Shown here one piece after another: positions 1,291-54,991 of a DNA stretch of 55,707 bases; position 1 is the stretch's first letter; each line of letters opens with the position of its first letter. Position numbers and translations under genes: made by a program. The notes under the pieces are model-generated. The model searched no databases, was not told the DNA's origin, and saw only the letters and a program-made list of their open reading frames with translations. The stretch is from Azolla caroliniana (Eukaryota > Plantae > Polypodiophyta): the NCBI GenBank assembly GCA_043228905.1, contig JBHGNT010000193.1:1-55707 (forward strand), in the 5' to 3' direction.

Positions 1291-1433
1291 CTCGACTCCC
1301 TCCATCAATCGATCGTATTTCTTCTCCTGTCGTGTAGCAGATCGGCAGAACAGGGGGCCTCTTTTCTTCGCTCTCCCTCTCTCTCTCTCTCTCTCTCTTT
1401 TTCCGCTGCAATTCTCTCTCTCTCTCTCTCTCT

Positions 1434-1960
1434 TGCTGACCGTTACGTGGCCGTCATCTGCTGACCGTTACGTGGCCGTCATCTGCTGCCGCCGTCGTCT
1501 GCAGCCGCGTCGCCTGCTGCTGCCGACGACGCCGCCTGCTGTCGCTGCTGCTGCTGACGCCGCCGCCGTCGCCTGCTGCCGTCGTCGCCGTCGTCTGTCG
1601 ACGGTCGTTGTCGTCTGCTGCCGCCGTCTGCCGTCTGCCGTCTGCCGACTGTCGCCTGCTGCTGCCTCCGTTTTCTGCCGCTGACGTCTGCAGACTGCCG
1701 CCGTCGTCTGTCGTCTGCAACTGCTGTCTGCTGCCGTCGTCGTCTGCAACCGCTGTCAGCCGCCGTCTGCTGCCGCTGCCGACTGTCGCCGTCCGCCGTC
1801 GTCTGACGTTTAACGTCTGCCGCCGTCGCCGTCGTCTGACGTCTAACGTTTGCCGCCGTCGCCGTCGTCGTCGGTTCTTGGCCATCGTCGTCACCCGTCG
1901 CTGTTGTGGGAAATCGGTGCCCTTGTCGCCGTCGTTGTTGTCATCGGTGTCGACCGTCGC
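1434..1960 (+). repeat. CpG-rich degenerate GCCGTCGTCT-type repeats, probable LINE 5' UTR; starts with a 25-bp tandem duplication (1434-1458, 1459-1483)
   Basis: tgctgaccgttacgtggccgtcatc x2 followed by gccgtc/gtctgc repeats. Confidence 0.8.
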
Positions 1961-2105
1961 TATCACCTACACCTCTTACGGCGTCGTGACGAGAGAGTAC
2001 AAATGTGCTTCGACACTTGTACCTAGCGCGCAAGACATCGATGCTCGGCTAAGTTTTTTCTGCCCTTTTTGACTTTTTTCTTTCGTTTATTCTTTGAATT
2101 ACAAC

Positions 2106-2872
2106 ATGACTTCTCGACGAAACCATAAGGAAACACACGACGAAATGATAAGTAAGGAAGAATTTTTAGATGTCCTTAACCGGTTAGTAAAATTTGAAAA
2201 ATGGGCGAAAGAAATTGAAGCTGAAAAACAAAAAGATAAGGAAGAAAAAGAACTACTTTTTGCGGAAATAGCGAAACTTAAGGTAGACAATGTGAACCTC
2301 CGAAAACAAGTTAAGGACCTCGAGATATCTAGGGAAGATGGTGAAATATCTTCCCTAGAGGATATTAAGGACGAGATAAAAAAGGTTAAAGAAGAGGTTA
2401 AAAGTGATATGGAATTAGCTAAAACTGGGTGGGTTGATGTAGTAAAACGTAATATTAAAAAAGAACTAAAGGATGAAAACATTGTAAACACCACCCTCGA
2501 GGAAGAAAAAATGCGTCAAGCTCGACGCCTAAATGTACGAGTTACTGGGCTCAAGGAAGGGGCATCTCCGGATGAAGATGCACAAACATTAGGGAAAATG
2601 TTAGGGTACGAAGCCCTACCAATCACTAAAACCTGGAGGGTAGGGCGTGACACAACTAGGAAAACTCAGAATCTAGAATCGCCTTTTTTAAAAAGAGACC
2701 AATTCTTCGAGGCTTGGGCGGGGAGCCTATCTACCTCGATGAAGACTTGACCAAGATGCAAATTGAGCATCGTAAAACTTGTATGCCGCGAGTCATACAA
2801 GCTCGTAAAGAGGGGCATCGTGCTTTCTACCGGGACGGACGTGTCATAATAAATGATCGTGCCGCCAATTGA
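2106..2872 (+). pseudogene. LINE ORF1 (coiled coil + RRM-like + C-terminal domain) with a frame change near 2660-2690
   Basis: First frame gives coiled coil ...RRLNVRVTGLKE...WRVGR; the -1 frame (open 2660-2869) gives ESRIAFFKKRPILRGLGGEPIYLDEDLTKMQIEHRK...ARKEGHRAFYRDGRVIIND, the typical ORF1 IxxxEDLT C-terminus; TGA at 2870-2872. Confidence 0.85.
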
Positions 2873-2878
2873 CGGCGT

Positions 2879-5800
2879 GTGGCCCATGTGACAGATAATA
2901 AACTTAGGATCACTTTATGGAACTGTAACGGCGCACTTTGGACACATCCTGGCCGTCTAGAGGAGATTTTGAAAGTGTCTGATATACTTTTTGTAGTAGA
3001 AACACATCAAAGCCCAAATCGAGGACTGCCACGAGTTGACGGTTTTCGTTGGGAATCTGTCTTTAGACAAACCTCACGTCGACACACTACTAGAGGGTCT
3101 GGGGGGGTTGCGATATTATTTCGGAAAGAGATAAATAATAGGATAGAAATACTAAAGTCAGACCCAGAAGCCCATTTTATGTGGGTGAAAGTCCTCACTA
3201 GTAAGGATCAGGTGATATTTATCGCAATTTGTTACTTCCCCCCGAAAGGGTCCCGCTACAATATGGCTGGAGAGGCGAGTATAGTTGATGAAGGAACGCC
3301 ACATGGGCCTTCTCCATACGAACCTTTGTCGGATGACATAATCCGATATTCTTCTCAAGGGGAAGTCTTCCTGGTAGGAGATTTCAATGCGAGAACCCAG
3401 TCCCGACAATGCACAATATTTCAGATGGATAGAAACCTAGAAATGGTGAATGTCGACCCTTTAGCCTTAGGCATAACATGTACATCGAAGGATCAAGGTG
3501 CGGATGCCACAAGCTTTGGCCATCATCTGCTTGAACTTGGAAGCCGACACCAGATGATCATATATAATGGCTTAGCCAAGTGGCCGGGCTCGGAAGAGCT
3601 CACATGTTTCCCACATGGAGGAGGGGAAAGCACCGTTGATTATCTAATAGGACGCCCTGAAGCTACCCACATGGTTAGCTCCTTCCGGGTGGCCCCATGC
3701 CCCATTGGGGCAGACCATACCTTCCTATACTTTGAGCTAAAATGTGACACCTCCCACACCACCAACTCTAGTAAACCAACCCATCACACTATAATACATT
3801 TCACGCATGAGCTCGCGGACATCTACTCTCGACATGTTCAAGCCCATCTTTCCTCGTTTGATTCTTCCTTGCCTTTAGAGAACCTCACTACAGAACTCAC
3901 ACACATCCTTCACTTAGCCGCCACTAGTAGCTTCCCATACACGAAAGACTCCAATCATAGTAGAATAGGGTCTATGCCACAAAACAAGTGGTATGACGAG
4001 GATTGTAGAGAGTTGTATAGACAACTTAAAGTATCGCGACTCAGTGGTACTATCTCCTTAGTACAGGCTCGCAAAGAGATGCGCAAGATGACACGTCGTA
4101 AAAGACGAGCTTGGGAAGCATCTCAATATTGGGAACTCTACCATATGCTCATGAGTAGGGATTGTGCCCTTGCATGGAAGAGACTACGGGAACCGAGACC
4201 ACAAACACCCATCGAGGATCCCAATATTTGGCACACATATACCGAGAGACTCTACCATGTCCCGAACCAACCACCCATTCCAATGCCCTCCACACCTCGA
4301 CCTACCATGGGGACACTTTTCACGACCTCTAGGGTCACGAAGGTCATAAAAAAATTACAACATAGGAAATCCATGGACCACACAGGATTGCGAGCCGAGC
4401 ACATCATATATGCTCGAGAGTGCCTAGCTCCCCTTCTCACTCTAATCTTCAACCGCGCCCTCACCGAGGGTTTTCCACCACAATGGGCCATGAACACTGT
4501 GGCCCCTATACATAAAGGAGGGGACCCAATGGACCCAAATACATATAGGACCATTATGATAGGTCATACGCTTGCTAAACTATATGGTGCAGTAATGGAA
4601 GCGGAGCTCAGTGATTATATGGAAACATTAAGTCTTCGAGCACCTGAGCAGGCTGGCTTTAGACGAGCCTTCTCCACTATTGACCACATCTTCACACTTA
4701 GGTGCTTAATTGACCAAACAAAGGCTCGTAAGAAGAAACTATATTGTTGCTTTGTGGACTTTCGCAAAGCCTTTGATACAGTACCTAGGGAGAGGTTGTT
4801 TGATAGACTTAAGAGCTTGGAGATACCAAATGACATGATTTGGGCCATTTATGCCCTATATGAGCAAGTCTATGGGCGCGTAAGATGCCCAGGTGGCCTA
4901 TCCGATTGTTTCACTAGCACCATTGGTGTAAAACAGGGTTGCCCCCTATCACCGACTCTTTTTGGGATCTACATTGATGAGATCACTGATTTTATTGCTC
5001 GTAAGGGAGGCAAAGGAGTGGCTATTGGGGATACGCAAGTTAGTCTCTTACTCTACGCAGACGACATTGTCTTGCTCTCGGAGTCGGAACACGACCTACA
5101 AAAGCATCTTAATGCCCTAGATGACTTTTGTACACAACGAGGACTGGTAATGAATCTAGCGAAAACTAAAGTCCTTATCTTTCATACATCGCCCAGAGTT
5201 AGGAGTAAATGTCACCTCATCCTCTCTCATAAATTAGTTGAGGTGGTGGGATCTTATGTATACTTGGGAGTCACTTTTAGTGCTCGCTCAGGTAAATTCT
5301 CGATGACCCAGGCAGCCAAAGATAGGCTAACGAGAGGATATGCATCCCTCTCACTCTTAGAGAGACAATGCCACCAAGCATACTTTCAAGAGCCACGGAC
5401 TAAGGGATGGCTTTTCGACTCATTAGTGACCCCGTCCCTCATGTATGCATCAGTAGTATGGGCTCCAGGTCTACCATCTTTCATGTGGACGCAATTGGAG
5501 AGACCTTTAGTGGTGATGTTATCACGTCAACTCCGAAGCAAATCGACAGTACCACATGACATTATTAGAGCGGAGTTTAGCCTACCCCCGATGTTAGTAG
5601 AAGCACTCTTTCAAGTGGTAGCTTTTATTCATCGGATACATAGTCAACCACAAGATAGGATATCCCGTCGAGCCTTTGAGGCATCCCGATCCTTACATGT
5701 GTCTGGAGACACCAACTCTTGGTATAGCATTGTGGTGAGTTGGTTATTTGCAAATGGCATAGACATTAATAACCTACCTCCCCTTAAGTACAACCATGGG

Positions 5801-6625
5801 ACTGATCAAACTTTAATCTCTCGTGAAGATCGTAATAAAGTGATACGCCAAGAAATATGGCAAATCTACACTCGATACAAATGGATCACCCCACGAGAGC
5901 CACTCCCATCTAAAATGGTGTACTATAAGGAACACTTCTTGCACTTCTCTAAGTTAGGGTTTATTACACGACCAAGATACCTAGATACTTTCTTATCAAA
6001 TGCACTAAGGGTGGCCATTGGACGACTTAGGATATCATCTCACCAACTTGAGATTGAGAATGGTCGAGCTAATAGAGTCCCTAGAGAGGAAAGGCTATGT
6101 AGGTTATGCCACATAGAGATAGAGGATGAGTATCACTTCACATGCAAGTGCCCAACTTATGCCGAGATACGGGCGGAATACCAAGACATACTAGGACCCT
6201 CTCCCACCCTCTCCAAACTATTAGATACCCCGAGTGTAAAGAGACTAGGTAGGTATATCTTAGAGCTAAAACAACATAGGGAGGATAAATTACAAAGTGT
6301 TAATCATAACCCTTTTACTACTCATCAACATGTACCTAGTGTAATTTTTCAGGAACATGGGGAGACGATGAATGTGGATACACTTATGCCGCTCGGCCTC
6401 TCCCTTGAGGAAGCAGAAATACAAAGAGCAACCAAACGTCCTCGGATGTTGGGCTTCAACACAAGTCAATGTGGAGTAGAAAAGATTAAGAAGATAAGGG
6501 AACGTGAGCTACGTCGACTCGAAGCTATGGTTGGGGTACCTCTTACATGGGGACCACGGGCCACATCCACATCATGGCAACCCTTTGACCCCCCGCTTCT
6601 CTTCGAGAGACTTGGATGGAAATGA
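2879..6625 (+). CDS. LINE ORF2: AP endonuclease + reverse transcriptase + CCHC motif, intact (1248 aa from GTG; start uncertain)
   Basis: EN motifs WNCNG, ETH, GDFNAR, VDYL, GADH; RT motifs QAGFR, FVDFRKAFDTV, GVKQGCPLSP, YADD, YLG; CRLC...EDEYHFTCKC. Confidence 0.95.
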   Translation: MAHVTDNKLRITLWNCNGALWTHPGRLEEILKVSDILFVVETHQSPNRGLPRVDGFRWESVFRQTSRRHTTRGSGGVAILFRKEINNRIEILKSDPEAHFMWVKVLTSKDQVIFIAICYFPPKGSRYNMAGEASIVDEGTPHGPSPYEPLSDDIIRYSSQGEVFLVGDFNARTQSRQCTIFQMDRNLEMVNVDPLALGITCTSKDQGADATSFGHHLLELGSRHQMIIYNGLAKWPGSEELTCFPHGGGESTVDYLIGRPEATHMVSSFRVAPCPIGADHTFLYFELKCDTSHTTNSSKPTHHTIIHFTHELADIYSRHVQAHLSSFDSSLPLENLTTELTHILHLAATSSFPYTKDSNHSRIGSMPQNKWYDEDCRELYRQLKVSRLSGTISLVQARKEMRKMTRRKRRAWEASQYWELYHMLMSRDCALAWKRLREPRPQTPIEDPNIWHTYTERLYHVPNQPPIPMPSTPRPTMGTLFTTSRVTKVIKKLQHRKSMDHTGLRAEHIIYARECLAPLLTLIFNRALTEGFPPQWAMNTVAPIHKGGDPMDPNTYRTIMIGHTLAKLYGAVMEAELSDYMETLSLRAPEQAGFRRAFSTIDHIFTLRCLIDQTKARKKKLYCCFVDFRKAFDTVPRERLFDRLKSLEIPNDMIWAIYALYEQVYGRVRCPGGLSDCFTSTIGVKQGCPLSPTLFGIYIDEITDFIARKGGKGVAIGDTQVSLLLYADDIVLLSESEHDLQKHLNALDDFCTQRGLVMNLAKTKVLIFHTSPRVRSKCHLILSHKLVEVVGSYVYLGVTFSARSGKFSMTQAAKDRLTRGYASLSLLERQCHQAYFQEPRTKGWLFDSLVTPSLMYASVVWAPGLPSFMWTQLERPLVVMLSRQLRSKSTVPHDIIRAEFSLPPMLVEALFQVVAFIHRIHSQPQDRISRRAFEASRSLHVSGDTNSWYSIVVSWLFANGIDINNLPPLKYNHGTDQTLISREDRNKVIRQEIWQIYTRYKWITPREPLPSKMVYYKEHFLHFSKLGFITRPRYLDTFLSNALRVAIGRLRISSHQLEIENGRANRVPREERLCRLCHIEIEDEYHFTCKCPTYAEIRAEYQDILGPSPTLSKLLDTPSVKRLGRYILELKQHREDKLQSVNHNPFTTHQHVPSVIFQEHGETMNVDTLMPLGLSLEEAEIQRATKRPRMLGFNTSQCGVEKIKKIRERELRRLEAMVGVPLTWGPRATSTSWQPFDPPLLFERLGWK

Positions 6626-6827
6626 AATTAGGCCTAGTATAGAATCATTCTCATTGTAGAACATGTTTTTTTTATATAGAACATGTTTGTTGTTTTCTTA
6701 GAACTATTTAGCTTAAACTCTATTTTATCTTATTTTTATTTTTACTTTCGATGAATGGGTAAATATCCCATTTTTGTTGTACACCATTTGTCTCATGGGC
6801 CAATTTTGGCCTTAGAAGACGTTAATA

Positions 6828-6860
<33 letters not shown>

Positions 6861-7033
6861 CCTCCTCCTCACCACTGCTGCAGACACATACAGCAACAAA
6901 TCGACTCCCTCCCTCCATCGATCGATCAATATTTCTGTCCCTGTCGTGGAGCAGATCGGCAGTACTAGGCTTCTTTTTGATTCCCTCTGCTCGTCTTCGT
7001 CCTCCTTCTAATCCCCCCCCCCCTCTGCTGCGA

Positions 7034-10000
7034 ATGACGACAGAGCTGGTCCTGAAATCCTCGTGCTGTTCGTGCGGCGTTACATCAGACCTTTATGGTA
7101 GCTCGTGTAGGCACCTCACACTATGCCCCGCCTGCGGCAAGACCATGATCGAGAACGCCTCCCCGTGCCACGACTGTGGCGTCCCTCTCTCCGGGTTAAT
7201 CCGAGTTAGTCTACTTTTCTTGGGAAAAACCTTAAATTTTATTTAAATTCATTAATTTTCTCTCGTTGTTGGATTTCTTGCTTTGTATGAAAGCAGACAC
7301 CTTATGGACTGGTTTAGGCTTGCTTATTTATTTATGCATTATTCTCATATTTTTTTTCATTTTGTTACATTTCATGCCTAAAACATCAAGATTTGGCGAC
7401 CAAGACGTTACTTGGTATGAGAATCAGTTTCTCTCTTGTTGTGCTGTATTACTCAATTTGTTAATGCCCTCAAGGTAGCCCTGGGATTGCCCTTGATTGT
7501 TAGTTTTTTTCAGACTATTCTGAAAGTCAAGTTAAACTATTGGAGATGTCTCTGTTAGTGCTAAACACGTGATTGTTAATGTGTCAAGGTATTTTGTTGT
7601 AATTTTGGCCTACTCTCTCTAAATACAAGGGTTAAGCATAAAGACTCGGATATCATGGTTTTCACAGAGTGCAGGTTGTGCTATGATTTGATTATTAATG
7701 TCTTGAGGTGTAGTCTTGCAAAATTCACTTGGTTTTTAACTTCCCCTTCTCTCTGAACACATTGGTGAGAGCTAGAGCATAGCTTAAAACTTAGTAAAGG
7801 TATCATGGGTTGTCATAACTCTTGATTGCTAATGTCTCAATATGTCACCTGGCAAAAACATTTGAGTGTTTGTTTCAGCCTACTTTAATATAAATACACT
7901 CGATAAACCTAGGGATTTGGCTATCACAGGGCAAAACCTACTGAAAGTATCCCGGGCTGTGTGAACATTGGGTTGTCAGTTTTGGCCTACTCTTCCTATC
8001 GATAAACCTAAATTAGTGGTTCACTGATTAAAACCCATTGAAGCTATCCCATTCGTGCTGATATTTTTATGTAGCTTTGCCAACTACATTTGATGGTTAA
8101 TTTTGGCATCCCCTCTGAATTCATTTGGGAAACCCAAAAATTAGGAGTCTATAGGTTAAAAATAACTGAGGTATCATGGGAGTAGCCTTGTGAGTACACT
8201 TGATAAGTTTGGCCTACTATTTGAGCACACTGAGAAAACCTAAAAATAAAATTTTTTACTGTCTCAAAGTCTATTCTTACTGGATATGTAGCCAATGGTC
8301 GGAAGCTATGGTATCTGATGTGACTTGTATTGGAGCTTAAGAAAATCACAAGAAGTTAGACTTGTTTGCTAATTTCTCCAGGTGTAACGTTACCTGAAGA
8401 AGTTTGATAGGGGCATTGTCAATGTGTATAGCCTCCCAAAATTCTATTCTACATTTTACTAAAAGACGAGAAAATTTGGTGTCAGTGCCTTTAATTGTAC
8501 AGGGTAATTTTGCCTCAGTTTCCATTGTCATTGGAAAGAGGCAATGATTAGGTGTTCACATTTTAAAACTACTAAAGAATGCAGAGAAAATTGCTCATGG
8601 CATTGGAACACACTCTCCAGAATACTTGGGTTAAAGTAACAGTCTTACAATCCCTCAAGCTGAGTAGTATTTAATCTCTTCCCCTTCTTGGAGGTTGATA
8701 TGAAAGTGGGCTTTTTGTAACTAACAAGTACTTATATTTAACTCCCGAGATTGTTATGCAAATTAAATGTGAAAAAGAGTTAGAACAAGCTATCTTATAG
8801 TTATGATTATAAAATCAAATATATTATGCTCACAACTTCTGGAATCGGCATATTTCTCCCCCCATGACATAAGTTGCAGTTACATTGATCTTAGGCATGT
8901 AGTGTCTAGATTCATGGTTGAACCCCACTCTCTAGAGTGCTCGGGTTAAAGCAACAGTATTATGATGCCTCAAGCTGAGTGGTAGATAATCTTGTCCCCT
9001 TGTTGGACGGTAAGAAGGTGGGCTTATTTATGCAAATTGTTTATCACAAGTACTTATAGTACACTTTGGATAGTACTATGCAGATTTCATTTGAAAAAGT
9101 GTTAGTACAAACTGTATTATAATTATGATTATTGAAACAAATAGGTCATGCTGAAGACTTCTGGAATTGTTACATATTTCTCCCCCTTATGAAATAGATT
9201 GTAGTTCTATTGTGTTTAGGCAGGTAGTGTCTAGATTCTACACCAAAAGCACCCTTGAAGTTTCTGAATGCATAGAGATGAAGCTCTATCCTCCTTCAAG
9301 GCTACAATGTTGTGGCATTAAATGCCATGCCGCTTTGATATTTCTGAATTCAAAGAGATCAATCTCTTGGCTGGTTCAAAACTACAATCTTGTGGCAACA
9401 AATGCCTCACCCCCTTGAAATTTCTGAAGGCAAAGAGATGAAGGTCTAGGCTGCTTCAAAGCTATAATGTTAGGCAGATCTTAAACACCATCGGCATCCC
9501 ATACCACTGAATGTTACCTAAGATCATACATTGGATGAAAAATTCACAGCGGTATTGTTAAGAAGAGCCTTGCCACACCACTAGTGTCTCGCCGCATTAT
9601 GATAGATATATTTGTCTCCTCCCAATGAGGTTAGCTACGCCTCATTTTATGCTTGCACCTTAGGTCCTTGGGTCACCACATGTACTTTCCATGCATCATT
9701 ACCTTATGTGAATTGCCTTGACTTTTAATATACCTTTAGAACCATTAGAAATTTGTCCCTAAATAATGTATTAAGGTTCTGCATGTAACACAAATTGAGC
9801 TCAGAGTTAGGGATATAGGAATTAAAAACATGTGCCATTCAATAAATAAGTATAGAAAACCAATTCCATCGCTGCTATACAGATATGTTCTGTTTAATCC
9901 TTAACATGATTTGGCACGTAAAGTCTCATCCACATCGAACAAGGAATTTGTATTTTATCTGCACAACTCTGTTTACCTGTCTAGAGATTGTTGTGCTTCA

Positions 10001-13000
10001 ATATGAGGGCCTTTTAATATGGTCTATCAACTCATAAATGAGAAACTTAAGGAGTCCATCCCATGCAAATCACTCAGAAGAGGCCGGAGTCTGCACAAAA
10101 GATTTTCTAACTATTACAAGACCCTTGATTGTTAGAAATATGTGGTTCTAAGGTCATGATAAATAGGATCCTTACAATGACATCCAACCCATGGAATGAA
10201 ATGCCTAGGTACCATTAGCCACCATTTAAACGAGGCATTCGATGAAGGTATCGGTTTTAATAATGGTAAAAAACATGCCACACTAAATGGAAAGCCTATT
10301 TACAGCTTTTGTAATCTTTGCCCACATTGCATTCACAAATGAATGTTTGCACTTGTGAAGACTGTGGACCGAAAGTAGAAAATGGTGTCATGTGAGCAGA
10401 AAGTTATGACTCAAGCTTGAGCTGGAGTTGGTAGTCCTTTGTCAACCACAATGGAACTTTGGTGGCAAGATAATAAGGACATGCTCAGCTGGCTATTTAA
10501 AATTAAAACTGGGCTGACGATCAGTATGAACTGATAGTAAGTGGTTGTGGAGTCGTCAAAATTGGTTGCATAACTATCATGGTGGAAGCAACATGATTGT
10601 AACAGCTTTGGGAACTCTTTGGAATATGTTAGCAACATTTGGTCTACAAGTTGCAACAATTTGTAAACGGTTGCTTCATAAGAGATATTTTGCAGTAATC
10701 CGACACACGAATGTTCCAGATCAAATTATGATGGAGATAATACATTGCTTATTTGACACACAAGGGTATAATTTAACTGAATCCCCCTTCTTGGTTACTT
10801 CTGCAGATTAGATAGTTGAGCTTTAGCTTCTCTTAATAATAGAAAAGTTTTCTTTCTTTAATTAAGTGTCACTCTTTCATGGCTCTCCAAATCCTCTTGG
10901 GAGAGAACCCATAAGGGTATGGATAGATTGTACTACGAGTAGTATTGTCTCTCTTGCGAAGCTTCAAAAAGTCTGGAGTCATCTTCTACAGAACAATGTA
11001 TTTCATATGATATCTATATCTAACTCTTATGATTCATGTCACTCTTTCTCCAGGAGTTCAATGTAAAGGCTCATCCAGTCAGCAAGCCACATTTTGTGGG
11101 TAGATTTTTACAAGGTCTTCCATCATTATCAAGAAAGAAGAGTGGTGATCCAAAGTGGACCATGCAAAGAGAGGGTCTGCAAGGTCGCCAACTTACTGAT
11201 GCTCTTCGGGTATTTTTCTTTTTTATGTTGCTTGTACCGTTTATGTATCAATTGTATGTCAGAATAAGTTAATAATGAATGGTTTGGAATACAATATTTT
11301 CGAAGAATCATTTAGAGAAGAGGATGCAAAAAATTATATTGGCATGCACATAGTTTGACAATATTTTAGGTCATACTACAGATTTCACCTATGGTAAGGA
11401 TAGATCTTTGTTAGCAATTCAGTGAATATTTTTCTTCATGCTGCCTGGAGTAATTTTATAATCGTACATACCACACTGAATTGAACATAGGTGCTCTTTT
11501 CCATGAGATTGCTGCTTTGATTCGTTGTGTCTGTATGTCAATTGTCTATGTGCTTGGATATTTGGATATTTGATTATTCATTTCATTCTTGAAAACAGAT
11601 ATGAAAAATAAAAAAATGGATTTAAGGCCCACGCTTATTGTAACGATACCTGAATATAGGAGAAATATAAGGCAAAACCATGGCTCTTGGAAGACGACCA
11701 AGTAATTTTATAATCGTACATACCACACTGAATTGAACATAGGTGCTCTTTTCCATGAGATTGCTGCTTTGATTTGTTGTGTCTGTATGTCAATTGTCTA
11801 TGTGCTTGGATATTTGGATTTTTAATTATTCATTTCATTCTTGAAAACAGATATGAAAAATAAAAAAATGGATTTAAGGCCCACGCTTATTGTAACGATA
11901 CCTGAATATAGGAGAAATATAAGGCAAAACCATGGCTCTTGGAAGACGACCAAGGACATCAGTCATTTCAAGGGGTACTAGAGGGTGGACAACAAGCTTC
12001 TTATTACCTTTTAATGATGCATGGAAAAGACTTTCTGGCTATGCCTGCAGGTTCTTGGTATGAGTTCATCACTTTTTTAAGATCTATTTTACATAGTTGC
12101 CATCTGCATAGAAATGTTCCTCACTTACATGATCCTATATGTGAATAATATACAGAGGTATTTTAAGGAATCAAATATGGATGCATAACAGGAAAATTGA
12201 CGTCTCGTAAAAGTCCAAAATGACCCACAAGGCTGAGCATGAGAAAGAAAAAAAGTAATAGTATTGTCTACAAAAGGCTAAACTGACTTATGAGACCAGA
12301 ACGTTCTTAGAAATGTTTTAGCACACACATGATTGTATCTAGTCATAAATATGATAGATTGTCTGTAAACAAGTTAAAAGCTAAACTTGAGGTGTCCTCA
12401 GTATCCCTTATTTGTTATTTTATTTCAGAGGGTTTACATTAGTGTCGTCTATGGCTTCTATGGCAGGCTTTTTGAGATTGTAAGTGTGGGGAATAGGTTC
12501 TCAAGGTATTGCCTGTTTCCTCTATTTAAGGTGACTCCTCTAAGGTGTGTTCTATTGTTTGTTGAGGGTCAGAAGTTATGTGATGATGAATATAGGTGTT
12601 GAAAATCTACTTCCTAAATTGCAGCACTTTATTGTTAACATAGTCCATTGAATCTTAATGTTTGGGATATCTTTGATGCTTAAATTTATAGATTGTTTTT
12701 TTTCATTGTTTATTGTATCATATGATTCAAATAGGGCTTTTGATGGTTCAAAATTACACCTATTCTCAAAATTGTAACATTTTATTGTCATTGTGGTCTA
12801 CTGAACCTAATGTTTGGGATATCTTTAATGCTTAAATTTAGTGATTGTTTTTTTCCCACTGTATGTATCATATTGTAAATACACCATCCTGGTACACCAC
12901 TACACCACATATATGGTGTTGTATGACTTAACAAACTAGGTGCCCATTCACATCCATAGTTCTCCTCTGTTTCAAGCACTTGACCAGAGCGAAGCTTGGC

Positions 13001-16000
13001 AGCCCAGAGATGGTCCAACTAGAATTGACTTTCAATATGCGGAATTGCATTCAATTGTAAAGTTTAACCCTATAATGTCGCTTCATGTTAGGTACTCATA
13101 CCAATGTTAGATCCCTCTGCTCTTCCACAACTCCTTCCTTCACATTTTCCCACTACATCATACTCTTTGCCCCTTCAAATCACTTTCTCTAGGGCCTAGG
13201 ATGTCTACCTTTCCAAAACTTCAAATTTCTATTGAATAATAGGATAAATATCTATCCCAAACCAACAAAGAGAGCAATGGTAAAAATCTCCGTAGATCTG
13301 TTCAGGTGTAAATGTAAATTAACTCTTGGGGGTTTAATAACATCCATCCCAGTAATAGCAACTTTTAAGGAGTTTTTTGGTTCACATCCCTTATCACAAT
13401 TTCTAGACCAAACCAATCCACAATCAAAACTAGTTCATAGAAGGAGAACTTGCCTATTTCTAAAAGAGGAAAATCATTTGCAGGTATAATTTTCATAAAG
13501 TAGCGAATTACAAGCAACTTACACTAGAGGAAGCCGAAGAGCAAATGAAGAATCGACGTAAAACTGCAGATGGATATCAGCGTTGGCTGATGAAAGCTGC
13601 AAACACTGGTGCGGCTGCTTTCGGTGAAATTGAAAAAGGAAGTGGTGGTGGTGGTGGTAGTGGTGGAGGTGGGGGTCGTGGTGGTTTCCGCAGAAGGGCT
13701 GATGATGAAGACGAGGCTGCTTTCTCTGATAAAGGAGAGGAAGATGCTGATGATGAGGAGGATAGAAAGAATAGGCTTGGCATGAACAAAAAAGGAGGTG
13801 ATGAAGATGGAGAAGAGCCTGCTAAAAGGGATGACTTTGAATTCGATGATGAGGATGCAGAAAAAGGTATTTGGTCTTAGGGTTATTTGAGAGTATAGTT
13901 TCTATAAATTGATTATGATTGCCGTCTATATTGTTCCTGGCAATTTATTGCAGGTGATGATTGGGAACATGAAGAAACTTTTACTGATGATGATGAAGCA
14001 GTTGGTAATGACCCAGAAGAGAGAGAGGATCAAGCTCCTGAGCTTCCTGCTCCACCTGAAATCAAAGAGGTGGCCATTAATAGTATCAATATACTCCATT
14101 TTTTAATATTTGCGTTCACAATGAGGCTACACCATCTAACATCTTATTTACAATATTGTGGTTTCTACGCTCTTAACTTGTGTTCATGAAATTGGGTTAG
14201 TCCAATAATATGTGAATCTGTTCTAAAACATCATAATTTTTGCAGCTACAAAATATTTCTATTTTTCCTGAAATGAATTTTGAAGCTTCTTACATGTATA
14301 TCCATGCTATCTAACAACTGTATTTCCATGACAGGAAGAAGAAGACGCAGAAGGAGAACAGGAAGATGGGCAGCAAGATAAGGGTGGTTTAAGTGAATCA
14401 GGGTTAGAGTTAAAGAAGCTGCTTGGAAAATCTGCTGGTTTAGATGAATCAGATGAGGAGTCCTCAGATGAAGATGTAAGTAGTAATTATATGGAAGCTA
14501 TAAACAATGACAAATATATCTTTCTGACGAGCATTATTTATTATGTAGACTGTTATCAGCAAAATGCTGATTCTTTCTATGAGTATTTTTAGATTGATAT
14601 GGACAATGAGGACAACGTATCTCCTGTTCTTGCTCCGAAACGAAAAGAAGTACCTAAGGAAGAATCCATGGAAACTACACCTGTAAAAGCTGCCGCTGTA
14701 GCAGCAGGACGCACAACCCCAGCATCTAGTGTGGCACCCAAAGGCAAAAGGAAGGCTGGTGCCGATGAATCAAAATCTGGTCCACCTGCAAGTTCTAAGA
14801 AAGTCAAAGCAGAAACTACACAAGAGGTTAAATGCTATAACTCTATCAGTATAAAAACACCAAAGTATCCCTAACCTTATGGATGTTGACTAGAGTACCC
14901 CCTAAGTCTCCAAACGTACCAAACTCCTGTTTTGTAATGCACAAATTTATTACTTCAGTGAACTATTCTGCTGATTCTTAAAACTTTTCAGGATATTCTG
15001 AACTTCTGGTAAAATGTCAATTGAAGACTTCATTCTAAGGATCCAGAATTTTTTTCTATAGCAGGATGCCAAGCTTTTGAAAAAAGAATCTTCTGTATCC
15101 ACATTGTCATCAACATCAACAACCAAGGGAATTGTGTCACCTGCCAAAGGTGGAGGTGCAATGCAAACAAAAACTGGCTCCCAAGTGCTTGGAGGGGTCA
15201 CTGAAGAAGATGTAAAGGCAGTGCTGAAGCAATCTGGACCTATTAAGAGTCACGACCTGGTCAACAAGTTCAAAAGTAGATTGATGACAGCTGAGGTTAG
15301 TTTTAAGGATAAAAAAGGCCTTAATATAGTTTCGTTTTTGTATGTTGTTGATGGTTACTGTGTAAATATTGTTGGGATGCATTCAGATCAGTGTTCTATG
15401 CTTGTGCATGGCTTCCTTTAGAGCCATATAAGATTTTGTATGTGTGTGCATATTTAAGATACCATTCATATTATCTTTTTCTTCCAAAGGTGACACTAAC
15501 AAATTCTCTATTTTTAGTTAGAGAAAGAAAGAGAGAGATATATTAACATCTTTTAATAGGCCAAAATGGCCTATAAGACCAAACAAGAGATTACATCTTA
15601 TCAGAACATTTAAGATTCTCAGATCAAAAAAATTGTAATTTTTGTTTTTGAAAGGTCTCTAGTCTAGGTTGATCCAGAATGTAAAGGTCTCTGAAGCAAG
15701 GGAAGCACCTGCAATAGCGGGAGATAATAGCCTTTATCTGTCAATGACAAAGGGTGAGATCGTGGTCCATGAGGCCAGGCCCTACATGCACGACAACTTG
15801 CTCTTGCCCGATCTATTGTAGCCACTTTGTTATGTCCTGGTTGGGAACCCATTTCTGTGGCCCTTGATTTGAGTGATGGGGCTAAAGAATGTTGTGATTG
15901 TCCTTTGTTGATGAGTTTGTGTAGCTGTACTGTTGTCCTTCAACAACTTTTCCATGTGTCTCCTGTGTTCTAGCAAGAAAAGACTAAGCATCTTTTGTCC

Positions 16001-16728
16001 TCATATTCCATTACCTTCCATATTGGGTCAAAGCCTTGGTTAAAGAGGCAATGGTATCTCCCTCTTATTTCATAAAAAACGCTACAGGATAAACATAGTG
16101 ATGAAGTTCGCAGCTGCCCTATCACACTGTGCAGTGCATAGGATAGATGTATGTCCATATAAACGAGAAAGATACACTAAGGCTCCTAGAGCCCAAAATT
16201 GGCCTATGAGACAAATCATGATTACAAATATGGGTGAATTCATGTCATCCCTAAGAAAACAAGAATAAAATTTCTAGGTTTCCTAGAGCTATGATCAATA
16301 TCTGAATGCATGTGGTGGAATGATTCTGAGATGTTCTACAAGCAAGAAGGAGAGATATCTTGTTCACGGATACATGGATTTTATCATGCAACTATTTAGG
16401 ACTGCTCTTCTAAATTCTTTGGGCCTATTCCCATGAATATGTAAGGTTCATTCATGCATAAACCTTTCACATACGTATGGATTATCTCCATCTACATATT
16501 TGCTTACATTCCTTTAAACAAACCTTAGCATACAACAGCAACTGAGCTTTTCCCCAATATATGGGTGGCATATGGAATAGTTCGTTAGTTTTATGATGTA
16601 GTTATGAACAATTATGTAGTTTTGCGATGTATATGCAGGATAAAGCAGCTTTTGCTGGTGTGCTGAAGAATATATCAAGGATCCATAAAACAAATGCAGG
16701 GAACTTTATTGTACTACGGGAGAAATAA
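7034..16728 (+). CDS. RAP74: Transcription initiation factor IIF alpha subunit (RAP74), 9 exons, about 555 aa
   Basis: Exons 7034-7204, 11054-11209, 11912-12057, 13484-13866, 13954-14069, 14335-14475, 14593-14826, 15065-15295, 16639-16728, all GT-AG, total 1668 nt. Motifs [52 protein letters not shown]-terminal FIVLREK. Confidence 0.95.
8611..9240. repeat. Diverged tandem duplication of about 315 bp in TFIIF intron 1
   Basis: cactctccagaatacttgggttaaagtaacagt... recurs as cactctctagagtgctcgggttaaagcaacagt... with collinear similarity through gtagtgtctagattc. Confidence 0.8.
11450..11953. repeat. 252-bp tandem duplication spanning the intron 2/exon 3 boundary of TFIIF alpha
   Basis: Copies 11450-11701 and 11702-11953 differ at only a few positions; AG microhomology at the junction. 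Confidence 0.95.
12608..12875. repeat. Diverged tandem duplication of about 150 bp in TFIIF intron 3
   Basis: taatgtttgggatatcttt(g/a)atgcttaaattta shared; antisense ORFs both read [15 protein letters not shown]. Confidence 0.8.
13331..13447 (+). pseudogene. rpoB: Plastid rpoB fragment (NUPT) in TFIIF intron 3
   Basis: Translates to [39 protein letters not shown], matching the plastid Rpo[19 protein letters not shown] signature. Confidence 0.88.
15520..16160 (-). mobile_element. 5'-truncated LINE fragment related to the 1433-6860 element, in TFIIF intron 8
   Basis: [20 protein letters not shown]...[11 protein letters not shown] parallels LDTFLSNALRVAIGRLRISS...CPTYAEIRAEY of ORF2 (internal deletion); 3' end taggccattttggccta...gttaatatatc plus CT/CTTT tail. 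Confidence 0.85.
16161..16330 (-). mobile_element. Second LINE 3'-end fragment abutting the first
   Basis: Minus strand tttgtctcataggccaattttgggc...tatctttctc matches tttgtctcatgggccaattttggcc...tatctttc at 6787-6835; upper boundary approximate. Confidence 0.7.
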
Positions 16729-18864
16729 GCAGAGTAATAATTGTGCCTGAAATATGTATTTTCGACCCGGACCCAAATTGGAAAAGATTGCTGATCACTA
16801 CTTGTTAAACAAAGCAAGTTGATTCTCATGCTAATACATTAATGGATCAGAGTATTTGTCAGGAGTTGAAAGAATGCTAACAATAGGTAAACCTAACAGT
16901 TCGTAAATGTAATGTCGATTTGGTTTTTTCTGAGGTAAAACATCTATATCACAACTTGGTCTCCGGCATCCCAATTTTTGGAATTATACATATAACATGG
17001 CTTTTATACATATCCTTGCATTCTGTTTTGACTATTTTTTATTTGCAATTTAACTAATCACTGAATATATGGAGCGACCACACAAAATATGGATTCTCTT
17101 TGGCTTCATTGTATAAGGCAACAATATCAGGCAAGTATAATAGAAGCTTACAATATCAGGCAACAAATATTTTCATGTTGATTGTGCTACAAAAAGCCAA
17201 ATCATGCACCCCACACTTTTATTGATTGGCATAATATGTTGCCTGATGTATGAAAAGTTTTGTTCTATTCATTGAGAAATTATGATTCTGCATGAACTGA
17301 TCCAGAACCAAACCCTCATAATTTTCTTGGTATGGGAACCTTGGCGAAAACTTGCATGGTATCAAATCACTGTGTGAGTCTGTAAAAGGTATATTATGTC
17401 TGTTTTATAAATGGTTATGCAAAATATAATGTCTATCGTAGTGTCGGCTGTGTTTTATTAAGCCCAAGATGGCTTAATTTACAGAATCTTAGCTTTAAAC
17501 CTATCTCGTTTGGAAGTGATGGTACTTTGGTTAAGGGACATAATAGTTGCATCATGAAGATACCTGATTGTCAAATTCCTCTCAGTTGTCAGTGGACCTG
17601 TTGTACTGTTTGATTGATTGTTGTTGACGGATTGCTTTGAAAATAAAAGTAAGATTTTAACTGTGGGGGGTATACAGCTACTGTTCTCACCAAGGGCCCT
17701 GAAAGTGTGATATTGTGCTCTCAGTTAAAAAAGTAAATACATCACTACACTCACTGAAGGGAACGACATTAATTTCGTGATGCCAATTATTTAAAGATTG
17801 TGTTCCAATAATTAATGAATACTTAATTATTATATTTTATGGAATGCAAGGCTTGAACATGAAATATTTTATAAAATGTGGGTTTAAAGAATCTTTATTT
17901 TGTTTCGCCGCATCTCTCATATGAAGTATGGTGGCATGTTGAATTGAGTGGAAAGTGCTTTGTGAGTCTACCCACATAGGCAAACCAATAAGATACCCAT
18001 AACATTTGGGATATAATACATATAAGAACATCCCTTAGTTTGTGAGAATGTGCTATAGCTTCATACTAATTATTTTATAGCTTATTGCGAATCTAGTAAT
18101 TGTTCAAAAGGCTAGGTGTATTTTGTGGTCTTGCCCAAAATAAAATTGAATTATAGGTATTTCATCTTATGCCTACCTTGTAAGAACCATAGCATAAATT
18201 TGTCTTGAGTTTCCAATGTGCAATTGTAATGTTTCGACAATATCTCACATAATGCTCTCTTTTAGATGGTTTATTCCAACTAAAAAAACAGGACATTATT
18301 TCCCTTAACAATCAGCAAAAGAGTTCTTTACGTGATACAAAGAATCCAACCATAGACACGATGAAAAACCTACATGACACACTTTCTCAATACACAACAA
18401 TGTTCACAACATTCCATACACTTACGATGAAGAAACCATCCATGCACCGAGACGAAGAAACGATTGCAGTGCCTCGTCCATCCATCACACGCCATGTTTG
18501 ATGCGATCGTTAGTGATTCTCGGTTTGCTGGTCGTAGTGTGGTTTCTGCTACACACGCTCGTTGACAAACATGAAGCGTTTTGGAGCCATGAAGAGATAG
18601 AGCACAAATGTGTCTCTTCGTCGACAAGCATTCTTCGGCATTTGTCCTAGAAGACGGCCCTCATTGTTGAGAGTTTGGAGTAAGCCTATGGTTTGTGTGG
18701 AGTAAGAATCCCCTCCCCGCCCCCCCAAGGGGCAGTTTCTCGAATTTTCAAAAACCAAAAACCCTCCTGCGTCTATCTATCTATCTATCTATGTAATTGC
18801 GTTTCGATCGGTCGCGGGTTCGAATCCCCTCAGAACGAGTTTGCGTGCGATCCATCTTCTCGCC

Positions 18865-21648
18865 ATGGCTCCAGCAGCAGCAGCAGCAGCAGCAGCAGAA
18901 GGAGACGACGCAGAAGCAGACGGAAATGCCGACGATCATCCGCTCCCTGTACATTCCTCCTTCGATCCTCCTCTATCCCTTCTCCAGGAGCTTTCCGCAG
19001 AACGAGAAGCGCGGAAAGCTGCCGAGGCCTCCAGGTATGACCTTCAGGTTGCTTTCTCTCGCCTCAAGACCTTCGCGCTCGAAGCCGTTCGTCAGAGAGA
19101 CGACGCCGTAAGGCTCAGATGTGAGGTTGAATCGTCGAAGGAAGACTTTGAGCAGAGACTCGGTGAAGCTTTACGATGGAGGAATGAGGCATTTCAGCAG
19201 AGAGATGAGGCGTTTCAGCAGAGGAATGACGCAATTAAGGAGAGAGATGAGGCTCTCAGACAGAGAAACGAAGCTTTTGGATCATTAGAGGAGGCTTATT
19301 TGCATAAGGATATTGCGATTCATGGCAGAGATAACTCTAGATCTGATATTGAAATTGCTACGAAATTGCTTGTTGCTGGAGCGGATCTCATTACTACTAG
19401 GGTTTCTTGTGTTAAGAGGTTTCCTAATACACTTCCCAGGTCTTCTTCTTACACAGGTCTTTCTGCCATTGCTTATGGTTTCTCAAAAAGGTCTGAAGAG
19501 ATTGTGAACGAGTTGCTCAGCCAATATGATAGCGCTGTTAAAAAAAACTATGCCTTCTCAGAGCAGATGGATCGTCAACATAACCAGATTAATCTTAAGG
19601 TTTCTGAACTAGAGTCCACCATTGCGGTTTTAGAAGGAAATCTATCAAAAAAGACATTGGAAGTTGAGAAATGTCGAGAGTTAATTGCAGAAAAAGAAGA
19701 AAAAATCTTGGAGATTGAACGAATTGCATCACAGAAGATTGTTGAAGATGGAAATGAAAGCCTCAAGCTAGCAAATGCATTAAGGCTCGTGGAATCAAAG
19801 GCAGAAAATGTGAAAGTATCTAGCCATGAGTTGTCACAATTGATTTCAAAGATACATGAGATGATAGCAAGTTATGCAAACGTATTTTTCCCTGTTCATT
19901 TCCATTCAACCGCTGAAGCTTCTACGGTTGATGAGGCTGATGAGTGCATTCGTGATTCCATCGATAGATTGAATGAGATTCTGAAACTTTTCTCTAAACT
20001 AGCAGCAACTTGGGAGGAACAATTAGAGTTGAGGAAAAAGGCTTTAGAGGATACCGAAGGAACTATATCCAGACTTATAGTGGAAAAGAAGGAAATCACA
20101 AATTTCCTTGAAAGTGCGATCGCAGTGAAACAAGAGATGCTGGAAGCATTTTCCAAGCTTAGTTTGGACAGTAACCACAATTTAAATACAAAAACCAAGA
20201 ACAGGGATACAAGAAAAGAGACTATTTCAGGAACCGAGAACTCGCTCAATGAAGAGCTCAAAGTAGAGACATCTGGCAGGGTATGCAATGGTTTTATCAT
20301 AAGAAACTTTGTTATGAAATCTGTCTCAGTATTTCTAATTGCCTTTTTTTGTCTGGTTTAAACAGATAGCTGCATTAGAGGATAGTTTAAAGAAGTCGAG
20401 ACAAGAAATCTTTGAACTCCAACGTTTATTAGCTGTCTCCAGGTTTTCTATTGCTTAGATAGCAAAATAATGTTCTATCAAACCATTCTTTCTATTTACG
20501 AGTAACCTTGGATTTGACAATGGACAGGGGTGAGGTGGAATGGTTACGAATAACTTTGGAACGCCATGTAAAAGAATTATCAGTCAAGGGCGATAAAATT
20601 AAAGACTTTGAAGAGGAAAGGCTCCTTGTAGAAGAAACTGTATGGAATTGCTTGATTTTAAGAACTTGAGAAACTATTGTCTTGAAGGTTGAATCAAGAA
20701 ACTAAATTTCATTTTGTAATTATGTGGCTTTGAAGATTAATAGTTTCAAGAGAGACTTGGCAGCAGCAGAAGAAAACATATTGCTTTGGAAGCAAGCTGC
20801 TACAAAAGAAGCCGAGTCTGGAGCCCATATGCTTGAGGAGTTGGAGAAATGCCAAGAACAAGTAAGTTCAGCAGAAAGATAGTAAAATTTCAAGGATATA
20901 TTTCATTTTTAATAATTATGGACAAAATGTGGAAATGGTGTATGTTGATTTGCTGACATGATGAGATTCACTTTATCCATTGATTCAAGTTGCATAACCT
21001 AGAGTGTGCATAGAATACGCCATCTAGATAGATAGCACATAGTGCAAGTTCATGCACCAGGATAAATGAAATTTAATTTAGAGGAACATAATTCGTATTA
21101 GGCGATGAAATCTTGTACACGTGGAATAATGTAATGGGTATATTATCCTCTTCTATTTGCATGCTTATGATTCTCTCACATTCCTTGTACAGATTCTTGC
21201 CCTTTTTGTGCAGAATTATGTTCCCTTTGATTTCTTAATTTTTAAGTTTCAGAACATCCTTCCTGTGTGCTGATGATGGTAATGAAACCTTCACCAGACT
21301 GCTGTCCTCAAGGAGCAAATACGACAGCTCAACTATGCATTGGAAGATTCCAAGAGCAAGCTTCGGTCAAAAGAGGAGATGGCAACTACTGCCATAGCTG
21401 CACGTAGTGCTGCAGAACGTTCTCTTCAGATTGCGGACGACCGTGCATTAGAATTAAGGAAGAAGATTGAAGTTATGACAAGACAGTTTGAGCTCTTGGA
21501 TGGAATAGATGATGGGATTACTTCTGTAGGATGGCTGGATGCATGTTGGCCATATAAACGGCAAAGTAATAGGATTTCTCAGACAAAAGGCAATCGAAAT
21601 GGCCGGTTTGGAGCTGAAATGGAAAAGCTTTTGGAGCCATTTGTATAG
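18865..21648 (+). CDS. At3g49055/At1g24560-like coiled-coil protein, 5 exons
   Basis: Exons 18865-20280, 20366-20442, 20528-20639, 20736-20861, 21298-21648 in phase. Family-like motifs LPRSSSYTGLSAIAYG, KEEMATTAIAARSAAERSLQIAD, CWP; QRDEA heptad repeats. Confidence 0.85.
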
Positions 21649-22371: not shown

Positions 22372-24115
22372 TGTTATCCTCTGGGTACAGATAAAGAGAA
22401 GAATAGTATTAAAGATGAGTTCAACACAATCAACCCAATTGAAGCAAATTACAAGCATGGGTCTAAAAGGAAGAAATGGCATGGCATATCACCAAGCATG
22501 TTAGTTCCATGAATTCTACATAACGAATTAATGACATCTTTCTCTCTTTGATTTCATAACCAGAAGTTTGAATAGGAAAATCCTAGGGTTTTATCTCTAG
22601 TTAAAGCTTCAAGTTCTCCTTTTCTTACATGTGATGCATGCACAGCCCCGCCAATTTCCTTTTACAACAAGCTCGTTCTCAACATACTTGGACAATGGGG
22701 TATACCTTGTGTTGGTGGAAGATGTAGTAGTCAGCTTCATAACTATGGTATCAGCACGAATAGTTGTGCAAGGATTTTTTAAAGTTTTAGTTGGAATTTG
22801 CTTTCATAAACATGGTCTTAGCACAAATAGTTGCTCTATGCATCTAGCAACCTAATGAGCAAAAAGGGCATAGAGAAATTGCATGTATCACATTAGGGGT
22901 TCATTGACACGTAAGGAAACTAGTAAGTAAACAAATCGAAGCACCCACAATATTGTTGCTTCTTGTGTAACATGCAAATGATCATGATGCCATTGATCAT
23001 GGGCATCTAACCTCCATTTGTTGTAGCCATTCTTACGCCTAACCAACTGATTACAAGCAACTAAATGAGTGAGTGACCATAAGCATGTATGTTGGTACCA
23101 ATGTTTGAGATTGTTCTAGACAGCTAGAACAAATGTGTCTAGACACTAAGATCAAATTAGTAGGGGAATCTTGTCAAGTGAGAAAGGACCAATTTAGAGA
23201 ACCTTGTTGTTGACTGACTAAGTGCAAAGACCATACTAAGATGTAACATCTTTAGAAGTTTGTTCCCCAACATGGCCACCTATCATTGAGATCCAAGATC
23301 GGTGATGAAAAGACCACATCCTTGCTAATTGTATAGATCTCTCCCTTAGTTTGATTCCGAGTGTGCACTCACAATGTAGCTCCCATATCAAACAACATAT
23401 CTTTCTGACGACATCCTAATGGTTGTCATGTGACATGGTTCATTAATGGAATAAGTCAAATGTGGATCCAAAGTATTGGATATTTCCACAATCTAACTCA
23501 TCTATTATGCGCTTCTAAGTGCATGATAATGCATAATGCATGACAATTCAAGACATGGTACTCATTGTACTACGTGTGGGCATCTAGCAACAATTCATTG
23601 AAATGCACTATGTAGCAATGTTATCATCACCTAGGTTACCTCATCCTTACTCCCCATCACCAAGGCATGCACTTCAATTATGAGAAGAAAGAAAGAAGGA
23701 TTATGGGAGATGGTCTAATAAGGAGCAAACCATATCCTCTAGTTGTAGGAGGGTAAAATATGGTAATGATGTCATATGTCTTGGCTATAAGAAAAGAAAT
23801 TTCATACATACATACATACATTATTACAATTTACATATATATAAGTCTATAGATATATGATTTGCTTTAGAAAGGAAAAGAATGTCGCCTAGTTTTTTAA
23901 ACTTTTTGAGTTGGAGCTTCCCATGTATGTACTTACTATACATATTCATATTACAATGTAACTAGGGCACGTTCTTTACAGAACAAGAAGAGCATATGCC
24001 ATAACATATACACACAGAGTCATAGAAAGGAACAGAGCATTCCTCAAGGGCAGAGCAGTGCAGAGAGAGAGCGAGAGAGAGAGAAGCAGAAGCAGAAGCA
24101 GAAGCGACTGATAGT

Positions 24116-44638: not shown

Positions 44639-44910
44639 AAATGCATGCAAAACTGGATAGTTTCAAACTAGAGGTTTATAGTGATATAATATTTCAAACA
44701 AATCAATGAAAGACAAATCATATTTCAGTAATACATTAACCAATTGTTCATTTTATGTTGACGTCTATAGGTTGAAATGCATGCAAAACTGGATAGTTTC
44801 AAACTAGAGGTTTATAGTGATATAATATTTCAAACAAATCAATGAAAGACAAATCATATTTCATTAATACATTAACCAATTGTTCATTTTATGTTGACGT
44901 CTATAGGTTG
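44639..44910. repeat. 136-bp near-perfect tandem duplication
   Basis: Copies 44639-44774 and 44775-44910; one substitution seen (ttcagtaat/ttcattaat). Confidence 0.93.

Positions 44911-48140: not shown

Positions 48141-54991
<6,851 letters not shown>

What the first reader, a model, noticed from the sequence alone, without database searches (positions are those of the whole stretch)
11450..11953. Exon birth in progress: a tandem duplication builds an in-frame 42-nt exon with a new splice donor in TFIIF alpha
Seen: copy 1 holds the exon-3 acceptor (AG 11658-11659) and 42 nt encoding [14 protein letters not shown] (11660-11701). The junction then reads CAA|GTAATT, a plausible donor absent from the parental exon. 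Copy 2 gives an intact acceptor (exon from 11912). Possible outcomes: skipping (normal protein), inclusion (14-aa tandem repeat in the N-terminal region of RAP74 and a new 210-nt intron), or reading past the junction to an early TGA. The few differences between copies argue against a simple assembly artefact.
Basis: partly seen in the sequence, partly recalled or inferred. Interest (0 to 1): 0.7.

Follow-up and report, generated by a model that had tools for sequence, protein, structure and literature searches.

The report
Skipped duplicate splice site in TFIIF
A real 252-base tandem duplication has copied the intron end and first 42 bases of exon 3 of a single-copy plant TFIIF-alpha gene, but the assembled RNA carries only the normal form, so the extra copy is likely a skipped decoy exon and an ordinary example of a known kind of duplication.

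Summary
The duplication is real. Both assembled haplotypes carry it. Two DNA runs, one 1.4% diverged, show about double depth and a junction contig. A 6%-diverged relative has one copy, so it is derived, shared and not brand-new. The proximal acceptor, the 42-nt in-frame segment and the junction donor CAA|GTAATT are as described; the read-through stop is TAA, not TGA. Exon birth is not shown. Both RNA assemblies laid join exon 2 to the second copy with no 42-nt insert and no 11701/11912 joint. Only one of them (X7) likely comes from a carrier, and contigs hide isoforms below roughly 15-20%. The new donor matches U1 well (7/9) but lacks both -1G and +5G; all 8 real donors have one. The segment's length is nearly fixed in plants (109 of 112 homologues identical, none longer). 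Best reading: a skipped pseudo-exon that lengthened intron 2 from 450 to 702 nt. The same layout is published as amphioxus 'mirages' (skipped) and a potato intron gain (used), and this scan found the kind before in other genomes. A minor 14-residue-longer isoform remains possible (about 20%).

The parts
7034..7204 (+). TFIIF alpha coding exon 1 (ATG at 7034)
   Evidence: tblastn with homologue P0001; RNA loose ends before 11054 read the end of this exon
11054..11209 (+). Exon 2, donor CGG|GTATTT, phase 0
   Evidence: RNA contigs X7 and X16; frame check
11210..11911 (+). Intron 2 as actually spliced, 702 nt (about 450 nt before the duplication)
   Evidence: Joint 'skips 702, GT..AG' in X7 and X16; single-copy relative X8
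11449..11700 (+). Duplication copy 1 (intron end plus start of exon 3), now inside intron 2
   Evidence: both haplotypes identical here
11450..11455 (+). Parental latent GTAATT (context GGA|GTAATT, 5/9 U1 match), source of the new donor's intronic half
11658..11659 (+). Proximal (duplicated) acceptor AG; not seen used
11660..11701 (+). 42-nt candidate exon (pseudo-exon), in frame, 14 residues
   Evidence: absent from RNA contigs
11699..11707 (+). Junction-made candidate donor CAA|GTAATT (7/9 U1 match, no -1G, no +5G); GT at 11702-11703
   Evidence: genomic junction contigs 11673-11730 in X1 and X2
11711..11713 (+). In-frame TAA met if the proximal acceptor is used and the donor is not
11701..11952 (+). 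Duplication copy 2 (holds the candidate 210-nt intron 11702-11911 and the working acceptor AG 11910-11911)
   Evidence: haplotype C21 differs at 11904
11912..12057 (+). Exon 3, the copy that is used, donor TTG|GTATGA
   Evidence: RNA joints in X7 and X16; Pfam TFIIF_alpha
13484..16728 (+). Exons 4-9 (13484-13866, 13954-14069, 14335-14475, 14593-14826, 15065-15295, 16639-16728); the 9 exons give 1,668 nt = 555 aa plus stop
   Evidence: tblastn and exon-by-exon phase check; only exon 4 and its joins lie in the RNA-laid stretch

Best explanation
A 252-nt tandem duplication copied the end of intron 2 and the first 42 nt of exon 3 of the TFIIF-alpha gene, and the assembled transcripts splice past the first copy to the second, so the first copy likely acts as a skipped decoy exon whose main effect is a longer intron. 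Shown: the duplication, its sharing between haplotypes and genotypes, its absence from a more distant relative, and skipping as the only assembled form. Inferred: it arose by repair or template switching at a 2-nt AG overlap. Inferred: the two acceptors are locally the same, so the choice rests on what follows them. Copy 2 is followed by the full 146-nt exon and its donor with -1G and +5G; copy 1 by only 42 nt, a donor with neither, and U-rich intron sequence. Inferred: any leak is either in frame (both new sites used) or meets TAA and is likely degraded, so the duplication cost little and spread by drift.
For: RNA: X7 (depth 10.7) and X16 (42.4) each give one unbroken contig, exon 2 > 11912-12057 > exon 4; no 11701/11912 joint, no cover of 11702-11911, no loose end at 11701. 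Inclusion would add 29 private 31-mers and should break the contig at the repeat, as the genomic repeat does in X1 and X2, where even the 58-nt junction contigs were kept and laid. X7 likely carries the duplication: 1 difference in 575 exonic bases, and it has the window's C at 11161 where X2, X4, X8 and X16 have T, while the more distant X2 already carries the duplication. Donor: AA//GUAAU fits neither the AG//GUNNN nor the NN//GURAG class described in PMC11732430; 8 of 8 real donors have -1G or +5G, the new one neither. Protein: anchor spacing is 40 residues in 109 and 39 in 3 of 112 scorable homologues (130 retrieved, 18 lacked an anchor); inclusion would make it 54; 0 of 130 has the motif twice. 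One gene copy per haplotype in the genome. Precedent: amphioxus mirages reported not to disturb normal splicing.
Against: Only contigs were available, and they drop rare forms; at depth 10.7 an isoform below roughly 15-20% could vanish (my estimate). Only X7 is informative: X16 differs at 13 of 687 exonic bases and may come from a single-copy genotype, and no DNA run of the X7 plant was laid; its species label is that of the single-copy run X8. One sample, unknown tissue. The donor is the best U1 match among 458 intronic GTs of the gene and equals the best real donors (4-7 of 9). An in-frame donor this good arises in only about 0.4% of random breakpoint pairs. By the strict two-class test only 5 of 8 real donors qualify, so that test is soft. 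In potato the same layout gave a used new intron.
Confidence: 0.72

Rival explanations
1. A young minor cassette exon: both new sites are used in a reproducible minority of transcripts (about 5-20%), giving a TFIIF alpha with a 14-residue tandem repeat and a new 210-nt intron. The in-frame donor would be why the duplication survived in an essential gene.
For: Frame kept; donor 7/9, best of 458 intronic GTs; 0.36-0.38% of random junctions do as well; the proximal acceptor and the 42 nt are unchanged in both haplotypes; the candidate intron inherits the parent's acceptor and is 39% T; potato precedent.
Against: Not seen in X7 or X16. An unchanged 42-mer is expected by chance (p 0.48-0.58). The donor lacks -1G and +5G. 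No longer homologue among 112 scorable.
Confidence: 0.19
2. A poison acceptor: the proximal acceptor is used without the new donor, the frame meets TAA at 11711, and nonsense-mediated decay removes a sizeable share of transcripts, lowering TFIIF-alpha output.
For: The two acceptors are identical in the window haplotype; in-frame TAA three codons past the junction; decay would hide such RNA from assemblies (established knowledge, recalled).
Against: No RNA cover of 11702-11911 in X7 (98 private 31-mers expected). A costly allele in a single-copy general factor is unlikely to be carried by both haplotypes and by a genotype 1.4% apart.
Confidence: 0.06
3. A constitutive or major new exon and intron, as in potato RdRp.
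For: Same layout as the potato case.
Against: The X7 contig runs unbroken through the single-copy form.
Confidence: 0.02
4. Assembly artefact.
For: Low-depth DNA runs X6 and X9 show single-copy-looking contigs.
Against: Two haplotypes carry it; doubled depth and junction contigs in X1 and X2 from different studies. At about 4x depth, X6 and X9 can be collapsed paths like the 254-nt collapsed contigs of X1 and X2.
Confidence: 0.01

Closest known systems
Amphioxus 'mirages': tandem duplications of exon-intron boundaries (globins BflGb6 and BflGb9, Adh3; PMC3087553, passages read)
   Same: Tandem copy of the 3' end of an intron plus the 5' part of the next exon, with duplicated splice signals; normal splicing reported; proposed there as raw material for intron gain.
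   Different: Here a single 252-nt extra copy in a plant, with no copy-number difference between haplotypes; those are 10-160-nt units, often in unstable arrays. Here a frame-keeping donor forms exactly at the junction.
Intron gain in potato RdRp gene PGSC0003DMG402000361 (Ma, Lan and Niu 2016, PMC4974935, parts 1-3 of 5 read)
   Same: Duplication across an intron/exon boundary; acceptor, branch site and composition inherited from the parent structure; shared by related taxa and absent from outgroups.
   Different: In potato the new intron is spliced (106 RNA-seq reads) and its donor GTAAG is a cryptic site inside the duplicated exon part. Here the donor is a chimera of exon and intron sequence, and no use was seen.
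[quoted passage not shown]
   Same: Would be the imprecise kind, adding coding bases through a latent site.
   Different: Not a purely exonic AGGT duplication, and the defining step, splicing of the new intron, is not shown.

Membership tests
TFIIF alpha (RAP74/Tfg1, PF05793) | Match to the family profile above the curated cut-off | tested here: met
   Exon 3: 38.5 bits against cut-off 27.1; a profile of homologues hits human RAP74 and yeast Tfg1 structures
Mirage-type boundary duplication | Tandem repeat unit spans an exon-intron boundary and keeps the splice signal | tested here: met
Mirage-type boundary duplication | Regular splicing is kept | tested here: met
   Major form only: X7 and X16 contigs; minor forms are not testable with contigs
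Mirage-type boundary duplication | Minisatellite-like instability in copy number | tested here: not met
   Two copies in both haplotypes and about 1.7x depth in X1 and X2; so it works like a mirage but is a two-copy duplication, not an unstable array
Intron gain by tandem duplication (potato RdRp type) | Duplication is real, with an identified source | tested here: met
Intron gain by tandem duplication (potato RdRp type) | Phylogeny shows the single-copy state is ancestral | tested here: met
   X8 (6.3% diverged) skips 264 nt with 11 letters between, in one 2,826-nt contig; one outgroup only
Intron gain by tandem duplication (potato RdRp type) | The new intron is removed in mature RNA | tested here: not met
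   No 11701/11912 joint in X7 or X16; not met for the major form, low-level use not excluded
Young alternative cassette exon | Minor inclusion shown by junction reads | not testable with these tools
   All 23 runs offered were kept as contigs, none as raw reads
Major 5' splice-site classes (AG//GUNNN, NN//GURAG) | Junction donor fits either class | tested here: not met
   AA//GUAAU; 5 of 8 real donors fit strictly, 8 of 8 have -1G or +5G

The most novel reading that the evidence does not exclude
The junction donor is used at a low, regulated level and rescues the frame whenever the decoy acceptor is picked. The plant then makes a minor TFIIF-alpha isoform in which the strand carrying the start-site-selection residue (human D95 / yeast E346 region) is doubled: a polymorphic, datable first step of exon and intron birth in a core transcription factor, with single-copy relatives and a hybrid as natural controls.
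Probability: 0.19. Interest if true: 0.5.

Novelty: new member of a known kind. Interest (0 to 1): 0.22.

Why it matters
As found, it is a clean plant example of a known kind: a duplicated intron-exon boundary that splicing tolerates. Its modest value is as a natural twin-acceptor experiment. Two locally identical 3' splice sites lie 252 nt apart and the distal one wins, which points to downstream context (full exon and a strong donor) deciding the choice in this plant. Carriers, a single-copy relative and a likely hybrid exist for comparison. If a minor in-frame form were shown, it would be a datable early stage of exon and intron gain in an essential gene, at a site where 109 of 112 scorable plant homologues have the same length.

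Tried and rejected
(1) Single-copy allele in X6/X9: first read as a pre-duplication allele, then dropped. They are about 4x contigs carrying copy 2's letters, and deeper runs collapse the repeat the same way. (2) X16 as evidence for skipping in a carrier: discounted, 1.9% exonic difference, may lack the duplication. (3) Structure prediction from alignment A1: mean pLDDT 45.9, N-terminal domain under 50; not used, no fold search run. (4) RNA folding of 11210-12100: both acceptors equally unpaired (0.43), so no structural explanation. (5) Microhomology as the cause of the in-frame donor: conditioning on an overlap of 2 or more bases does not raise the odds (9 of 2,599, 0.35%). (6) Two protein searches for a product of this species or a repeat-bearing homologue: best identities 87% (exon 2) and 92% (exon 3); the window's own protein was not among the hits, so no test. 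(7) Literature on this gene or event: none in the 10 listed of 30 papers or the 1; two searches gave no plant twin-acceptor experiment. The library lacks most subscription papers, and Gao and Lynch 2009 was not held (known only as cited). (8) Earlier scan notes near this place: none; the genome-wide look-up returned unrelated notes. (9) Direction of the copy differences (two likely T losses in copy 1, one T gain at -8 of the used acceptor in C21) fits weakening of the decoy, but four sites are anecdotal and the outgroup rows at two of them were among 62 not shown.

Full report
OBSERVATION. Tandem Repeats Finder and the repeat finder give a 252-nt, two-copy array at 11449-11954. The copies match over 11449-11702 and 11701-11954, differ at three sites and overlap by the two bases AG. 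Copy 1 holds an acceptor (AG 11658-11659) and 42 nt that translate in frame with exon 2; the junction reads CAA|GTAATT; copy 2 holds the acceptor at 11910-11911. Read-through of copy 1 gives GTA ATT TTA TAA, so the stop is TAA at 11711-11713, not TGA. The GTAATT already lay in the parent intron (GGA|GTAATT at 11450); the duplication changed only its exon side.

THE GENE. Nine exons (7034-16728) give 555 codons with continuous phase and GT-AG introns. Exon 3 matches Pfam TFIIF_alpha above cut-off. Searches of the own genome with exon 2 (protein) and exon 3 (DNA) find it only here and at C21:3.65 Mb. The window is a whole small contig, 99.3-99.7% identical to C21 over the 18 kb compared, so it is the second haplotype. 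The plant is likely a fern: the nearest named relatives of the closest homologue are Adiantum and Ceratopteris proteins. This is an inference, not an identification.

IS IT REAL, AND HOW OLD? Both haplotypes carry the duplication; copy 1 is identical between them and copy 2 differs at one base. I laid 4 deeper DNA runs. X1: flanks 34.9x and 42.3x, a collapsed 254-nt repeat contig at 67x, and a 58-nt junction contig at 43.9x. X1 may be the assembly's own sample. X2, from another study and 19 differences in 1,355 flanking bases away (1.4%), shows the same pattern (17.4x, 18.7x, 30.4x, 12.6x). X4 has two flank haplotypes, one like X2 and one like X8; its junction contig is not in the printed rows, but two depth bins each imply one at about 16x (inferred). 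X8 (78 differences in 1,242 bases, 6.3%) crosses the region in one contig with a single copy. So the duplication is derived, arose between those two divergence levels, and is shared. The 1.2-1.6% difference between copies fits that age.

WHAT THE RNA SHOWS. All 23 runs offered were contigs. Of the 4 laid, two behave as RNA (X7, X16) and two as low-depth DNA (X6, X9). Both RNA runs give a single contig that joins 11209 to the exon continuing through 12057 and on to 13484. Neither shows a 11701/11912 joint, cover of 11702-11911 or a loose end at the junction. Inclusion would add 29 private 31-mers and read-through 98; a major such form should break the contig at the repeat. X16 differs at 13 of 687 exonic bases and may lack the duplication, so it says little. 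X7 differs at 1 of 575 and shares the window's C at 11161 against T in X2, X4, X8 and X16, so it falls inside the carrier group and likely has the duplication; its label, though, is that of single-copy X8. At depth 10.7, forms below roughly 15-20% could be lost (my estimate). Skipping is therefore shown as the major form in one likely carrier. Absence of inclusion is not shown.

HOW IT LIKELY WORKS. Origin (inferred): repair or template switching at a 2-nt overlap, with no transposon marks. Such local duplications are common here; intron 1 holds older ones (8595-9238, 74% identical; 9252-9468) and the window holds others. Choice of acceptor (inferred): the two are identical in the window haplotype and equally accessible in a folding model, so what follows them must decide. 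The new donor matches the U1 consensus (recalled) at 7 of 9 positions, the best of 458 intronic GTs and equal to the best real donors. But it has neither -1G nor +5G, whereas 8 of 8 real donors have at least one, and it fits neither major donor class of PMC11732430 (5 of 8 real donors fit strictly). A plant microexon study notes that in human brain short constitutive exons have stronger sites than long ones (PMC8831610).

WHAT INCLUSION WOULD DO. The peptide aligns to human RAP74 94-100 and yeast Tfg1 346-355, inside the dimerisation domain; yeast E346 (human D95) affects start-site selection (PMC2810376). Among 130 plant homologues, 112 had both anchors: spacing 40 in 109, 39 in 3, never longer; inclusion would give 54. 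The structure model was too poor to use.

AGAINST MY READING. An in-frame donor of 7/9 or better forms in 192 of 53,710 possible breakpoint pairs (0.36%; 145 of 38,096 after collapsing equivalent junctions), or about 2% at 6/9. After-the-fact selection by the scan explains part of this. Survival bias may explain the rest: a duplication whose leak keeps the frame is less harmful, which would mean some leak occurs. This is why a minor isoform gets 0.19.

COMPARISON. The layout is that of amphioxus mirages, where normal splicing persists, and of the potato RdRp intron gain, where the new intron is spliced; reviews class such cases as imprecise intron gain by tandem duplication. It works like a mirage but is not an unstable array, and it fails the defining test of intron gain for the major transcript. 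The mirage lead came from earlier scan notes and I checked it in the paper. Papers seen: PMC4974935 parts 1-3 of 5; passages only of PMC3443670, PMC11732430, PMC3087553, PMC2810376, PMC7111264 and PMC8831610; no supplements (the potato read tables and mirage alignments there were not seen); Gao and Lynch 2009 not held.

VERDICT. Real, derived, shared duplication; exon birth not shown; most likely a skipped pseudo-exon (0.72). New member of a known kind; interest 0.22.

Noticed in passing
window 1388-6847 (ORF 2873-6625, +): A 5.46-kb LINE-type element (endonuclease plus reverse transcriptase, open 1,250-aa frame, TCTT tail) sits 186 nt upstream of the TFIIF-alpha ATG in this haplotype only; C21 has the empty site. 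All 40 scored copies of its 3' part are 99-100% identical (2,325 candidates), so the family is young. It may affect this allele's promoter or 5' UTR, and could matter more for expression than the duplication.
   Followed up: partly
window 7000-9999 versus 10000-14713: The two haplotypes differ at 45 positions in the first 3 kb and only 10 in the next 4.7 kb, which includes the duplication: a shift in haplotype age inside intron 1.
   Followed up: no
window 1316-1374 and 6930-6988: A 59-nt, 76%-identical repeat that would lie about 150 nt apart without the LINE: an older duplication in the promoter or 5' UTR.
   Followed up: no
window 8595-9238, 9252-9468, 12616-12873: Older local duplications in introns 1 and 3 of the same gene (74-80% identical).
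   Followed up: no
window 44639-44910 and 50455-50686: Further young tandem duplications (136 nt x2, 99%; 115 nt x2, 89%); overlap with exons not checked.
   Followed up: no
window 13308-13447: A 140-nt stretch of intron 3 matches very deep contigs (about 490x, 9-15 kb) in X6 and X9 at about 93% identity: likely a small organelle-derived insert.
   Followed up: no
runs X7, X8, X16: Species labels and genotypes disagree: X7 shares the label of X8 but matches the window, and X16 shares the label of X1 but differs at 1.9% of exonic bases. X4 looks like a hybrid of a carrier and an X8-like genome.
   Followed up: partly
window 18706-20361, 24026-25117: Neighbouring open frames: 551 aa with no Pfam match at E 0.01, and a mitochondrial carrier with all three repeats in one 363-aa frame.
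   Followed up: no
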